Shown here piece after piece: positions 24,001 to 33,000 of a DNA stretch of 64,000 bases. Source of the stretch: Candidatus Woesearchaeota archaeon (lineage in GTDB: Archaea; Nanobdellota; Nanobdellia; Woesearchaeales; JAFGUC01); contig JAFGUC010000043.1 in NCBI GenBank assembly GCA_016938695.1, positions 1 through 64,000 of the forward strand, written 5' to 3'. Numbering within the stretch: the stretch's first letter is position 1; every line of letters starts with the position of its first letter. Made by a program: the position numbers.

Positions 24001-27000
24001 TTAAAAACAAGAAAATAAACACCTAAAAATAAATTGTTATAACTGGTTAAAATGATAATTGTAAAAAAAGAAAAAGAAGACATATACACGTTAAAAACAA
24101 AAGAAATATCCTTAAAATCATTAAAGTCATTAAAATCAGAACTTGCACAAAAAATTCTTCAAATCCTATCTAAAAAAATCATGTATCCTAAGCAAATTGC
24201 AAAGGAATTAAAGATGCATGAACAAAAAATTTACTACCACATCAGACTTCTAGAAAAAGCAGGAATAATTAAAATTGCAAAACAAGAATCAATGCAAGGT
24301 GCAACCGCAACATATTATGAATTAACTGAAAAATCATTTACAATTAGATTTGGAGAATATGAAAAAACTCAACAAATCAATGGTATAAAAAATGAATCCG
24401 AATTTTTGCAACCATTCATTGAAGATGGAAAACTAGATTCATTAATAATTGTAGGAAGTCCTGATCCACACGGTCCAGAAAAAGCAAGGTCTAGAGACGG
24501 ATACTACGGAATGGATTTAGCATTATTCATTGGTACTTTTCTAAATTACGTTCCAATCTCAAAAGTAAAACTCGACACAGAAACAAGAGACTCTGATTTA
24601 GACAATAACTTAATAATAATAGGCGGACCAATAGTAAATAAAATTACAGAAAAAATAAATAACAATATGCCAATAAGATTTCACGAAGGAAAAATAATTT
24701 CAACACTTTCTGGAAATCAATATAATGCAGATGAAACTGGAATTATTGTAAAGATAAGAAATCCATTTTCAAAAAATAAATTTTGCTTAATTATTGCTGG
24801 AAAAAGAAATTCAGGAACAAAAGCAGCAATACTAGCATTCTTGCAAGATTTCAAACAAATACGACAAGGAAATAACTACAACAAAAACCAAATCGCAAAA
24901 GTTGTAGAAGGAATTGATCTTGATTCAGATGGAATAATCGACTTTGCAGAATTTAGAGAATAATCATTTGAAAAAATTAAAGATAATCTCAGACCAACCT
25001 TTTGGACCAATTAAAGAAGAACAAATATATTGGTCTGACGAACAAGTTCCATCAGGCCTCTTCACAAGATAAGGAAAGTCTACTACATCCAAAAAATTAA
25101 AATCATTTGGCGAATCTCCTAGACCTATAAAATCAACCCGCTTAAATTCTTCAATAAACAATTTCATTAAAATTTTTGTTGCAATACCTTTATCACAACC
25201 ATTATTTATTCCAATGAATCTTCCACCAACATTAGAATTAAATCCATATTTTAATGCAAGATCTTTGAACCTTTGAAGTCCATCAGAATCAAAATCTTCC
25301 AAATAACAACCATCAGCATAAAACTTTTGTTTAGAAATCTTGACCGAATCAGAAGACAATCCCGTTATAGAAGACAATTCAGAATCTGAAAATTCTGAAT
25401 AAATTCTAATAGGAAATCCAATTTCTGATTGAATTTTATGCAAAACATCTAAAGTTTTTTCATGCGAAGAATTCAATTCAAGAACAACATAATTCTCAAA
25501 TTCAACAACATTTTTCACATTATCAAATTTAAAATCACGAATATCAAATGAAAAATAGTTTTTTGGTACGTAAATTGCGGAACCATTCTCAGCGATAAAA
25601 GGCGCATTGTAATCTAAATTTTCAAGCAAATTTCTAACCTCGTAAAATGTCTTTGATGTACAAAAACATATAGGAATACTTTTTGATACCAGAAAATCAA
25701 ATGCATTTTTAGAATCTAAAGATGAATAATTATCATCAATAAAAGTTCGATCAATATCACTTAAAACAACATACTTAGTATCAACCTTTGAGAAATAATT
25801 TATGAGTACAGAATTATCAACAATATAATCTTCACAATCAGCTAAAGAAAATCCATATTCAATAATATTATTCAAACTAGTATAACATCCTTTAAGAGAT
25901 AGACTTTTAGAAATAATCTGTCGATTATAATCAATAACTGAATAATCAATATTCATAAATGATTCAACAAATGATTCCATTTCTCGACGTAATTTTGAAT
26001 AATCACAAGTATCAACTATTTCAATCTGATCCTCAAAGGAATAATTCTTAAAATCGATACCATCAACAAGTATAGAATCATAAAATCCCGGAAATTTAAT
26101 TCCCATATTTTCAAAATCTTCCATAACTAAATTAATTCTTCGTCCAATAACTTGTTTTCCAGTAATCCAACCTTCAACAAATGCAAATCCAAATCCTTCC
26201 AAAACAGATGTTGTAATAATAGAATGTGAAATAGAAAATAAATCTGGCAAAGTATATTGAATTATTTTACCATCCACCACTTTTCGTTCTGAATTTGGAC
26301 TAATTACTTCAAATCCAAAACCAATAACAACAGGAAGATTTCGTTCTTTTACAAAAGTCTTTATCTTTTCAGAATATTCAATATCCAAAGGACTGTTTGC
26401 ATCTAAAGATATTAATAACTGATATTCATCTGAAATTGAATTAATTAAATTTAATAACAATATAGCTTCAAGAATGTTTTTTCGTCTGATTACTTTAACA
26501 GGATACAAGATATTCTTACGAGTCTTTGAAAAAGTAAATCCATTCTTAATAGCAAATGAAGATATTAAATCCAATAAACCATTAGTATTAGTAGATTCTG
26601 ACGATAAAAATTCAATATCAACAGAATTTGGGAAAACAAAAATTCGTTCTGATGGAATTCCAAGTTTATGCAATAATCGTTTATCACGACTATTAATTGT
26701 CAAATACAAAGAATTCTTTGTCAATGGAAAAGCAAGTGAACCTGCTAAAAAAGAATCAAATTTTCCAGTACAATTCTGCATAAGTCTCAATCTATCAGGC
26801 CTATTATCCTCAGCAAAATCATGAACTTGATATAAAACTAATAAATTATCTAGATGTCGCAACGACAATAATTTTAGAGCAAGAGGTAGATATGAATTCT
26901 TGAACAAATTTATATTATGTACATGTATCACACATTTCTTAGAAAAATCTAATAACGATTCAAGTTTAGCAGACAAAGAATTTGCAAAATCACTTAATTC

Positions 27001-30000: not shown

Positions 30001-33000
30001 AGATGATTTTTCCATAACTCCAACATCAATTGAAATTTTCTCTAATTTCTCAAATTCAAAATTCAATACAGATTCATCAAAATTAGAATCGCGAATTCTA
30101 CATATTGATGCATAAAGTTCAGGTAAGTTTTTTTCAATTTCAGCAAGCATAACAGAACACTTAGAAATAAACATTCCAGAATTCCACAAGAATTTACCTG
30201 ATTCTACATACTCTTTTGCAATATCATATGAAGGTTTTTCCTTAAAAGACTTTACACCACATAAATCAATAGAATTAGAATCAACAATTGAATCTTTTTC
30301 AATATAACCATAACCAGTATGAATTGATGATGGATGAATTCCAATTAAAATAATTTTATCTGTTTCCTTTGCTTTTGATAATGCAAACCTTACATGTGAA
30401 AGATACAATTCAACATCCTTATAATAGTGATCAGCAGTTTCAATAAACATCACAGAATCAGGATCTCTAGAAAATAAAGTCATCGCTGATAAACCAATAC
30501 AAGCAGCAGTATTTCTTGCCATAGGTTCAATTATAAATTTAGAATCAGGCATTATTTTTTTAATTTCATCCGACATATCTCGACCTGTCGAAATATAAAT
30601 GTTTTCACCAAAAACAACAGATAACCTATCAATTGTATCTTTAATCATAGGTTTATCTGAAACAATAGGTAAACATTGCTTTGGTTTGTTCATCCTAGAT
30701 AAAGGCCAAAACCTCTGTCCATATCCACCCGCAAGTATAACTGCATAATCCATAAGATATTAACAAGAAAAATATTATATAAATATTGTTATTTGTGAAG
30801 ACGACGTCTAATAATCGCTCTCTTCAATTTCCGAGCAATTAATCTATGAGAAAAATTCAATTTTAAAATTTTCAAATTTCTATTAACCCACAATTTTCTT
30901 TTTCGTTTATTATCAATTATACTTATAGTTTCTTGAATATCCTCTGGTTTTATCGAAAATTCAGACAATGCTTGTACCTTAAAATTATATTTCAAAAGAT
31001 CCTGCATAAAAACAGGATAAGTATAAACAATAGGAATCAAGCCAGAAGCCATAACTTCTAACAAATTATTTCCAAAACCTTCAATTTCACTAAAGTATGT
31101 AGAAATACCATCTAATGTTGCAAAAACACGAGGAAATTCTTCAAACCTGAATTCTTTAGATTTAAAATCCTCATTAAAAATCAAAAAGCAAGTATCTATT
31201 CCAAATTCTTTACGCAACTTCCTATCTAGTCTTTTCAATTTTGCTTTTGTATCGTCAGCACTATGACCTGAAATGAAAAAATAAATCGCTTTGTATTTCT
31301 TTTGTTTCCTCAATTCATTCAATAATTCATAGCAATACCTTAAAGCAAAATCAATTCTTTTTCGTTCTAAAATTCTAGTATGTTGTAATACAAACAAAAC
31401 ATCAGATAAAGAAAGATTTTTTTGTGTCAAAAAATTTTTAATATTATACACTTCAAGAAATTTATCCAGACGTTCGCTTTGTTTAAAATTATCTAAGTCT
31501 TCATAAGAATCGATAAAAATATCAGTTGTATTGTATATTACATCATGATTCTGTAGAACTCCATCATAAAATCCTGGTTTTTGAGAATCTAGTTCCAAAA
31601 GATAATTCTTTGCATCAGCAAATTGCATACTGTTAATAAATAAAATATATTCGACAAATCGTCCAGGAACACCTTGTAATAAATATCGTTTTACATCAGG
31701 CGAAGGATTTTTGAAATGGTCTCGCTCAAGATGAGAGTCATGCCACCACAAAATATATTTTGGTGTCTTTTTACCTTGCTTCTCACAATCAGCATAATAT
31801 CGCGATAGTGCAACAGAAAGAATAAAATTAACAGGATGACAAGTGTTGTGCGCAATAATAATATCAATTTTATACTTAGCAATAAAATCAGAAATTACTT
31901 TTTTTGCCTTACTAATATCTGACTCAATTTCCTCAGAGCGTTCTCCACCATATCCGTCTTTAAACCAATTAACCATTTGCCTATTGGTTTTATGACGAAG
32001 ACTCAACAATTGATTTCTCTTAATATTACTACCATGAACCTTGCTTCGTCCAACCAAATAAAAAATATTTTCTTTAGGTATCTCTAATGACTTAATCATG
32101 ACTGACTCAATTTGACGCATTACAATTGACACACCATCAATTGGTGTTAATTGAGAATGAAGCATTGCATATTTCAAAGAAGAAATTTGTTGCTTAGAAA
32201 ATCTAGATTGTTTGGGTAATTGCGATTTAACTGATTTAGATTTCTTTGTTGGAACACTATCTTCAACCGCCATATATTAAAATAAAAGAATAATCATATA
32301 AAAACGTTTTGTTAAAGAAAAAAATTTACAAATCTTCTGCAGACGTAATTCCAGTAGAAGTTATACGAAACATTACAGATTTTCCTTCTTCAATACTACG
32401 ATGTTTTTTCATAATAGCCTGTCTAATACCATTATGACCTAATTTAAGTTCAACTAAACATTTACTGCTATATCTTAATAAATCTCCACCAACCATGTTT
32501 ACACGTTCTTTATTCTCAAAATCAGCATAAACCTGGTTAGTTACAATAATAGGAATATTTCTATTAACAGCGATATCTACAAGATTAGAAATTTGAATAG
32601 AAAAATCTTTATTCAAAAAAAACACATCAGAAGACTGACTCATTTCTAAACGATATAACATAGCAATAGAATCAACAACCAATAAACCAAAACTATCATC
32701 AACCAAATCCTTAAGTCTGACAATAATTTCATGCTGTTCCTTAAAATTTCTAGGTCTAAGAATAATTATTTGATCATAAGAAGACTCTTTTAAACCACCA
32801 ATTTGTTTAAATCGTTCAACACTAAAACTATTCTCAGTATCTATTAACAAAACTTTTTTCTTATCAGAAAGAACTTTTTTAACCATTAAAAGAGATATAT
32901 TTGTTTTTCCAGAACCTGCAGGACCATATATGGTAGTAAGAGTTTTGTTCTCAAATCCTCCATCTAAAAGTTCATCAATTGGAGCAATACCTGATGAAGT

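What a model noticed while it worked through the whole genome (the two positions that open the first line are those of the whole stretch)
24964..32273. Mannosylglucosylglycerate pathway with MggA-phosphatase fusion in an archaeon
A five-gene cluster encodes glucosyl-3-phosphoglycerate synthase, a fusion of an MggA-like synthase with a GPG/MPG phosphatase, phosphomannomutase, GDP-mannose pyrophosphorylase and an MggS-like synthase. It predicts synthesis of the rare compatible solute mannosylglucosylglycerate, with a glucosylglycerate phosphorylase and glycerate kinase elsewhere for recycling.
Evidence so far: g00035 passes NF010496 (368 vs 262) and is 56% identical to Petrotoga GpgS; g00034 residues 4-422 match Petrotoga MggA (E 6e-30) and 470-736 match Methanococcoides GpgP (E 7e-42); g00038 matches MggS (E 5e-10); g00995 is 45% identical to glucosylglycerate phosphorylase; g00556 matches glycerate 2-kinase. 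One of 40 relatives has the MggA-like gene, unfused and next to gpgS. Search 127 listed 4 papers, on bacteria.
(Added by a program. Inside this text positions count along the whole contig: contig position 1 is position 1 of the stretch shown here. "Call 12" and the like, gene names such as g00115 and contig names such as C1 are that model's own, and its searches are not shown. The text may have been shortened before it was handed on; [...] marks where a part breaks off. The agent that wrote the report below was given it as the finding of a first reader that could run no searches.)

Follow-up and report, generated by a model that had tools for sequence, protein, structure and literature searches.

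The report
Archaeal fused sugar-glycerate synthase-phosphatase
A small-genome archaeon carries a glycosyltransferase fused to a phosphatase, next to a glucosyl-3-phosphoglycerate synthase gene; together they likely make the rare stress-protecting sugar mannosylglucosylglycerate, reported in the papers found only from a few bacteria, and the fused phosphatase would be a new way to finish that pathway.

Summary
The five genes are real, on an archaeal (Woesearchaeota-like) contig, but they are not one operon: the phosphomannomutase is on the opposite strand. GpgS passes its family cut-off. The 750-aa fusion joins an MggA-family GT4 domain (31% identical to Petrotoga mobilis MggA) to an MpgP/GpgP-fold phosphatase with intact catalytic motifs. 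It recurs in at least 7 other protein clusters (Woesearchaeota, Iainarchaeum), once directly beside gpgS. Of 80 metagenome loci of this family, 59 carry an MggB-like phosphatase. This archaeon has none, and its phosphatase has changed cap motifs, so it likely replaces MggB. GDP-mannose supply genes and a glucosylglycerate phosphorylase are present. Limits: trees do not place the enzyme between the Petrotoga and planctomycete MggAs (undecided), the donor sugar is untested, and the holding runs are labelled freshwater and sediment. The 'MggS' route is not supported: 41 bits against a cut-off of 640, no ggs found, and 8 of 10 genomes with that gene lack gpgS. The scan earlier noted a different, Bathyarchaeia, module resembling this pathway. 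Verdict: new variant of a known pathway; mannosylglucosylglycerate about 55% likely; interest 0.55.

The parts
24964..27216 (-). Fusion gene, 750 aa from ATG 27216 (the mechanical ORF starts at TTG 27234): MggA-family GT4 domain plus HAD-IIB phosphatase
   Evidence: One open frame; start by homology and a 2-nt gap after the gpgS stop; AlphaFold model mean pLDDT 85.1; contiguous in a Logan contig
25822..27216 (-). MggA-like retaining glycosyltransferase domain (aa 1-465); R245-K246 and E340-x7-E348
   Evidence: 31% to P. mobilis MggA; motifs invariant in 17 relatives; GT-B fold, best matches GlgM, SPS, MshA
24967..25779 (-). MpgP/GpgP-fold phosphatase domain (aa 480-750); D487/D489, T520-S521, K676, D701/D705; variant cap motifs
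   Evidence: TIGR01486 150.5 of 164.75; Foldseek best hits are MpgP structures, target TM 0.84-0.89; motif comparison
27219..28211 (-). gpgS, glucosyl-3-phosphoglycerate synthase, likely 330 aa (the mechanical ORF runs to 28373)
   Evidence: NF010496 367.8 against 262; 50-54% to gpgS genes in bacterial mggA loci, 64-69% to archaeal relatives
28212..28355 (.). 144-nt gap between divergent gpgS and pmm; promoters inferred, none shown
   Evidence: Coordinates; the sigma-70 scan was at chance level
28356..29720 (+). Phosphohexomutase (PMM/PGM type), only copy found in the genome
   Evidence: Four PGM_PMM domains; NF007088 438 against 618; tblastn
29707..30753 (-). manC-like mannose-1-phosphate guanylyltransferase, only copy found
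   Evidence: PF00483 and PF22640; TIGR01479 272 against 373; tblastn
30789..32273 (-). GT4 of a separate family, remotely like MggS; role in this pathway not supported
   Evidence: NF041101 40.8 against 640; 740 homologues; 10 of 400 genomes, 2 with gpgS
52214..53602 (-).
   Evidence: PF01704 E 2e-53

Best explanation
GpgS likely joins an NDP-glucose to 3-phosphoglycerate, the fused GT4 domain likely adds mannose from GDP-mannose, and the fused phosphatase would then remove the phosphate to give mannosylglucosylglycerate (MGG), predicted to act as an anionic compatible solute. The phosphatase comes from the MpgP/GpgP family, not from the R. baltica MggB family, and likely took over that step in these archaea; its changed cap motifs would fit a larger substrate. 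PGI/PMI, PMM and ManC would supply GDP-mannose. Any glucosylglycerate formed would be recycled by the phosphorylase and glycerate kinase. Shown: genes, folds, catalytic motifs, distribution. Inferred: every substrate, the product and the physiological role.
For: GpgS passes NF010496. The GT domain is 31% identical to P. mobilis MggA, about as near as the two characterised MggAs are to each other (27%, PMC3736172). Of 80 metagenome loci of the family, 59 hold an MggB-like gene, 22 a gpgS, and only the 2 fusions a HAD-IIB. The nearest bacterial clade has mggB-like and gpgS-like neighbours (L083, L084) and an MggB-GT fusion (P0180). Other family members are fused to MggB (P0273, P0160) or GpgS (P0219). 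No MggB-like gene was found in G000 or in 5 relatives. Fusion-gpgS adjacency recurs (L079); G209 has the unfused gene beside gpgS and GGaP. Both genomes with a close homologue (G105, G209, one genus) have gpgS, the variant HAD, GGaP and manC. manC is in 3 of 3 gpgS+MggA-like genomes and 0 of 2 gpgS-only genomes, against 20 of 160 in the order, and sits two genes from an MggA-like gene in G143. PGI/PMI passes TIGR02128. HAD domains that go with MggA-like genes group apart from gpgS-adjacent GpgPs (bootstrap 88 and 96) and replace R-[EKD]-[FY]-[SD]-x-[PV] by K-x-[YFH]-[AS]-[DN]-[GV].
Against: Two trees put the archaeal clade outside the clade of P. mobilis MggA plus planctomycete MggA-like proteins (SH-aLRT 95 in a quick tree). 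The AU test does not reject joining it to the Petrotoga side (p 0.19), so this is undecided. R. baltica MggA and MggB were represented only by surrogates from locus L007. The fused HAD is the only MpgP/GpgP-type gene found, that family acts on GPG/MPG, and a glucosylglycerate-specific phosphorylase implies free glucosylglycerate. No GH38 or MGH1-type hydrolase was found to break MGG down. None of the 80 loci holds manC or pmm. manC was not found in G027 or G151. G143 has a canonical gpgP beside gpgS, and G338, G339 and G151 have MggA-like genes without a gpgS found. GpgS's best solved relative is Rubrobacter MpgS (231 bits against 207 for M. tuberculosis GpgS). The holding runs are labelled freshwater and sediment, one study.
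Confidence: 0.55

Rival explanations
1. The phosphatase domain acts first, on GPG, giving glucosylglycerate as a main product; the GT domain mannosylates glucosylglycerate (MggS-like order) or is a side branch.
For: The domain has the MpgP/GpgP fold and is the only such gene found. The phosphorylase has the glucosylglycerate-specific TETN and loop-A Glu motifs (PMC7178133). No hydrolase for MGG was found.
Against: R. baltica MggA accepted only GPG among the substrates tested (PMC3736172). The GT domain scores 21.8 bits on the MggS model. The HAD cap motifs differ from those of gpgS-adjacent GpgPs.
Confidence: 0.2
2. Same three steps, but the GT domain adds a different sugar or linkage (for example glucose), giving an undescribed disaccharide-glycerate.
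For: The clade is not bracketed by characterised enzymes. Identity is only 25-31%. UDP-glucose and GalE genes are present. pmm and manC are single-copy genes that may serve other ends.
Against: manC is adjacent here and two genes away in G143, and tracks the MggA-like gene. Both characterised family members transfer mannose although only 27% identical (PMC3736172).
Confidence: 0.15
3. The GT2 synthase uses GDP-mannose, so the core is mannosylglycerate, with or without a second sugar.
For: Best solved relative is Rubrobacter MpgS; manC and pmm are adjacent; the phosphatase has the MpgP fold.
Against: It passes the GpgS model, is 50-54% identical to gpgS genes in bacterial mggA loci, and in G105 and G209 is followed directly by a glucosylglycerate phosphorylase.
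Confidence: 0.06
4. The product is a precursor of a glycolipid head group or surface glycan rather than a free solute.
For: PMC3736172 notes the Man-(1,2)-Glc unit in haloarchaeal glycolipids and GPG as a precursor of mycobacterial polysaccharide. glmS lies nearby and the runs are not labelled saline.
Against: A fused phosphatase that frees the glycerate, and recycling enzymes, fit a soluble pool. No lipid-linked transfer or export gene was seen among the five genes.
Confidence: 0.04

Closest known systems
MGG phosphorylating route of Petrotoga mobilis (GpgS + MggA Pmob_1143 + putative MggB)
   Same: gpgS directly beside an MggA-family GT4 gene; 31% identity to MggA.
   Different: Archaeal host; phosphatase fused and of MpgP/GpgP type; no ggs found and no convincing MggS; separate clade in trees.
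MGG route of Rhodopirellula baltica (GpgS, MggA, MggB) and bacterial gpgS-mggA-mggB loci
   Same: Same GT family; HAD-superfamily phosphatase; a GH13_18 phosphorylase in the same genomes; bacterial MggA-MggB fusions exist.
   Different: No MggB-like gene found; the phosphatase is HAD-IIB; 29% identity to the planctomycete surrogate.
Glucosylglycerate route GpgS + GpgP (Methanococcoides burtonii, Persephonella marina; cited in PMC3736172)
   Same: GpgS plus a GpgP-fold phosphatase; already known in an archaeon.
   Different: The phosphatase is fused to an extra glycosyltransferase and its cap motifs are changed; this GpgS scores 38 bits on the Methanococcoides-type model NF040724.
Bifunctional MpgS-MpgP (NCBIfam NF011072)
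   Same: A synthase fused N-terminally to the same phosphatase fold (126 bits, C-part only).
   Different: Here the N-part is a GT-B GT4 for a second glycosylation and does not match that model.

Membership tests
GpgS (NF010496) | Score over the curated cut-off | tested here: met
   367.8 against 262
GpgS (NF010496) | Uses NDP-glucose rather than GDP-mannose | not testable with these tools
   Context favours glucose; best PDB hit is an MpgS
MggA | Retaining GT4, GT-B fold, E-x7-E motif | tested here: met
   GT4 assignment of MggA from PMC3736172
MggA | Homology to a characterised MggA along the domain | tested here: met
   31% over 425 columns to A9BHJ0
MggA | Lies within the clade spanned by the characterised MggAs | tested here: inconclusive
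   Outside in two trees; AU p 0.19 for the nested alternative; R. baltica represented by surrogates
MggA | Co-occurs with gpgS | tested here: met
   Adjacent here, in L079, G209 and G027; same genome in G105 and G143; not found in G338, G339, G151
MggA | GDP-mannose + GPG gives MGPG | not testable with these tools
   Needs an enzyme assay
MggB, R. baltica type | Homology to the MggB family | tested here: not met
   Surrogate from L007 finds nothing in G000
MggB, P. mobilis type | Homology to the putative P. mobilis MggB | not tested
   Sequence not held; a stand-alone homologue in G000 is not excluded
MpgP/GpgP (TIGR01486) | HAD-IIB fold and catalytic motifs | tested here: met
MpgP/GpgP (TIGR01486) | Score over the cut-off and canonical cap motifs | tested here: not met
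   150.5 against 164.75; cap motifs replaced
MggS (NF041101), for the 494-aa gene | Score over the cut-off | tested here: not met
   40.8 against 640; MggS-like proteins L126 and L014 score 240 and 263
MGG non-phosphorylating route | A glucosylglycerate synthase (ggs) in the genome | tested here: not met
   A Ggs-like query from G143 finds nothing in G000
Glucosylglycerate phosphorylase (GH13_18) | (T/S)ETN motif and Glu in loop A | tested here: met
   TETN and YEMN present; motifs from PMC7178133

The most novel reading that the evidence does not exclude
Small-genome DPANN archaea make mannosylglucosylglycerate with a bifunctional synthase-phosphatase in which a GpgP-type domain has been re-tuned, by changed cap motifs, to a disaccharide phosphoglycerate: a third, unrelated solution to the MggB step and the first MGG pathway in Archaea in the papers searched.
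Probability: 0.4. Interest if true: 0.7.

Novelty: new variant of a known kind. Interest (0 to 1): 0.55.

Why it matters
MGG has been reported only from Petrotoga and Rhodopirellula in the papers found, and the R. baltica MggB was only partly purified, with low activity (PMC3736172). An archaeal synthase-phosphatase fusion would extend the solute to small-genome archaea usually seen as biosynthetically poor. It would show a phosphatase family switching substrate at identifiable motifs, and give a two-gene kit (gpgS plus fusion) that can be tested in E. coli. It does not open a new kind of chemistry, and it is rare: 2 of 400 sampled genomes carry a close homologue.

Tried and rejected
Single five-gene operon: rejected, pmm is on the other strand. 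Second (Ggs/MggS) route: rejected for lack of ggs and the weak, independently distributed 494-aa gene. Assembly artefact: no sign, a Logan contig spans the stretch unchanged. Recent foreign island: GC and GC3 of the five genes lie within about 1.2 SD of the genome mean. The sigma-70 promoter scan was at chance level (56 against 52.9) and does not suit archaea. Expression: no RNA holder listed; the one RNA run laid gave no contigs; neither is evidence. The plasmid collection gave only phosphatase-domain hits among the 15 of 23 records listed. ESM Atlas gave only generic GT4 clusters. No paper on MpgP cap-domain residues was held, so the role of the changed motifs in substrate binding is my inference. 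Fernandes et al. 2010 on P. mobilis was not held; I know it only through PMC3736172. A glycosidase-like gene at G000:C70:271751-272854 matched no Pfam or NCBIfam family. Place and sequence look-ups in earlier findings gave nothing. No complex prediction was run.
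Full report
Host and setting. The window is G000:C7:1-64000 of a 1.50-Mb genome in 85 contigs, 99% complete, 5.4% contaminated. Neighbours are archaeal housekeeping genes (radB passes TIGR02237; EF-2, EF-1alpha, ligase and Smc recognised by eye). Named homologues of the fusion come from Woesearchaeota and Diapherotrites/Iainarchaeum, so I read the host as a DPANN archaeon; no call names it. The two runs holding the stretch are labelled freshwater and sediment metagenome, one study, one of them possibly the source. A 45.8-kb Logan contig covers 24500-32800 with no difference, and pieces in the second run are identical. Median pI of 1314 ORFs is 7.0, so there is no acidic salt-in proteome.

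Anatomy. On the minus strand: a 494-aa GT4 (30789-32273), manC (29707-30753), then gpgS (27219-28211) and the fusion (24964-27216), two bases apart. pmm (28356-29720) is on the plus strand, 144 nt from the likely gpgS start and overlapping the end of manC by 14 nt. The cluster is thus at least three transcription units. GpgS passes NF010496 (367.8 against 262); PMM and ManC match their families below the equivalog cut-offs and are the only copies found. A PGI/PMI that passes TIGR02128 lies on C70 and a UDP-glucose pyrophosphorylase at 52214-53602, so both donors can likely be made.

The fusion. Residues 1-465 fold as a GT-B retaining transferase (pLDDT 91.9; best PDB matches GlgM, SPS, MshA at 11-16% identity) and are 31% identical to P. 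mobilis MggA. Residues 480-750 match MpgP structures (target TM 0.84-0.89) and keep all four HAD motifs. One search returned 6 other full-length fused clusters (P0007-P0012) and a partial one whose cluster holds a full-length Iainarchaeum protein (P0047), plus 11 unfused relatives of 459-489 aa at 41-57%. Fused and unfused forms interleave in the tree with weak support.

Distribution. In 400 genomes of the phylum, MggA-like matches occur in 6: G105 (fused) and G209 (unfused) are close; G143, G338 and G339 form a second clade; G151 is weak. gpgS passes its cut-off in 5 (G105, G209, G143, G235, G009). G105 and G209, one genus and so not independent, also have the HAD domain, a glucosylglycerate phosphorylase directly behind gpgS, and manC. 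G143 has MggA-like, ggs-like and manC genes in a row and gpgS-gpgP elsewhere. G235 and G009 have gpgS, a canonical gpgP, a ggs-like gene and glycerate kinase, but no MggA-like gene or manC was found. manC occurs in 20 of 160 genomes of the order; it was also found in G338 and G016 but not in G027, G151 or G345 (G027's contig ends at gpgS). No gpgS or HAD was found in G338 or G339. G339 is flagged unpublished; the count of 6 and that absence rest partly on it, nothing else does.

What the wider family does. A profile search found 1112 representatives at E 1e-30 or better. With surrogate references from planctomycete locus L007 (gpgS-mggA-mggB order), 59 of 80 loci hold an MggB-like gene (32 of the 37 loci of 8 kb or more), 22 a gpgS of either type, 19 an MggS-like gene, 12 a GH13_18 phosphorylase, 2 a HAD-IIB (both fusions), and 0 manC, pmm or the 494-aa family. 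In L079 gpgS follows the fusion directly. The nearest bacterial clade (about 600 aa) has mggB-like and Methanococcoides-type gpgS-like neighbours and includes an MggB-GT fusion; elsewhere MggA-MggB and GT-GpgS fusions occur. The family thus works between GpgS and a phosphatase. G000 and 5 relatives show no MggB-like gene (one search had no positive control, though the same query matches in 59 loci).

The phosphatase looks re-tuned. All 8 fused HAD domains, with the stand-alone ones of G209 and G027, group apart (bootstrap 88) from the gpgS-adjacent GpgPs of G143, G235 and G009 (96). They replace the cap motif R-[EKD]-[FY]-[SD]-x-[PV] by K-x-[YFH]-[AS]-[DN]-[GV], and all but G027 lose the Tyr/His of the RFYH-type motif. 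That these positions bind the sugar is my inference; no paper on it was held.

Limits. FastTree on 240 rows and IQ-TREE quick on 49 rows place the archaeal clade with its bacterial sister outside the clade of P. mobilis MggA plus planctomycete proteins. An AU test does not reject joining them to the Petrotoga side (p 0.19). Mannose transfer is therefore inferred, not bracketed. The phosphorylase has the TETN and loop-A Glu signature (PMC7178133), which implies free glucosylglycerate, and no GH38 or MGH1 hydrolase was found. The fused phosphatase may therefore act on GPG as well. GpgS's best solved relative is Rubrobacter MpgS.

The 'MggS'. It scores 40.8 against 640 on NF041101, whereas MggS-like proteins L126 and L014 score 240 and 263. 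It has 740 homologues, the best at 51-73%. It occurs in 10 of 400 genomes, 2 with gpgS; the 9 contexts fetched show no glycerate-pathway gene, while in G151 it faces a weak MggA-like gene. Three of the 10 have an MggA-like gene, more than chance would give, so a link is not excluded. No ggs was found in G000. I do not count it as part of the pathway.

Literature. Searches: 'mannosylglucosylglycerate' 5 papers; 'mannosylglucosyl-3-phosphoglycerate' 7; 'mannosylglucosylglycerate synthase' 1; glucosylglycerate with Woesearchaeota 0 and with DPANN 2; compatible solute, DPANN and GPG 1; seen as listings only. Read: PMC3736172 parts 1-4 of 7 plus passages, supplements not opened (its Figs S4-S6 and Table S3 list homologues and may bear on archaeal occurrence); passages of PMC3694870, PMC7178133, PMC11009771, PMC11046441, PMC12057145 and PMC9585477. 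None of these passages describes MGG, MggA or this fusion in archaea. Most subscription papers are not in the library.

Verdict. A real, recurrent, apparently undescribed fusion in DPANN archaea that most likely completes MGG synthesis (0.55), with glucosylglycerate-first (0.2) and another disaccharide (0.15) as main rivals. New variant of a known kind; interest 0.55.

Noticed in passing
   Followed up: partly
window 52214-53602 (-): UDP-glucose pyrophosphorylase of family PF01704; a GT3 glycogen synthase lies further along C7 at 78361-80118.
   Followed up: partly
window 24052-24963 (+): Winged-helix regulator with an S-layer-like C-terminal domain; its stop abuts the fusion's stop, and glmS lies divergent from it.
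   Followed up: no
L073 (G235:C18) 6410-13715 and L074 (G009:C1) 7073-13746: gpgS, gpgP, ggs-like and glycerate kinase genes clustered: a dual glucosylglycerate route in the same archaeal order.
   Followed up: partly
P0219, P0180, P0273, P0160, P0038: Other fusions in this metabolism: GT with GpgS, MggB with GT in both orders, and MpgP/GpgP with glycerate 2-kinase.
   Followed up: partly
L086, L090, L122, L123, L126, L130, L140, L144, L156: Bacterial loci join mggA, mggB, an MggS-like GT4 and a GH13_18 phosphorylase; the MggS-like enzyme might run backwards to break MGG down (idea, untested).
   Followed up: no
L026 327-1148 (G338): A P-loop kinase (PRK family, glycerate 3-kinase-like by eye) divergent from an MggA-like gene in a genome where no gpgS was found.
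   Followed up: no
L076 6156-7496 and L077 6193-7485: 430-446-aa GT2 proteins scoring about 170 bits on the GpgS model; about ten such matches in the 400-genome sample, role unknown.
   Followed up: no
P0012 and P0325: A fusion and a 73% homologue of the 494-aa GT4 both come from a Logan contig of 17,389 bases, possibly the same one.
   Followed up: no
L185 2752-3855 (G000:C70): 367-aa glycosidase-like protein (26% to a GH100-like gene that follows the 494-aa homologue in G345) with no Pfam or NCBIfam match.
   Followed up: partly
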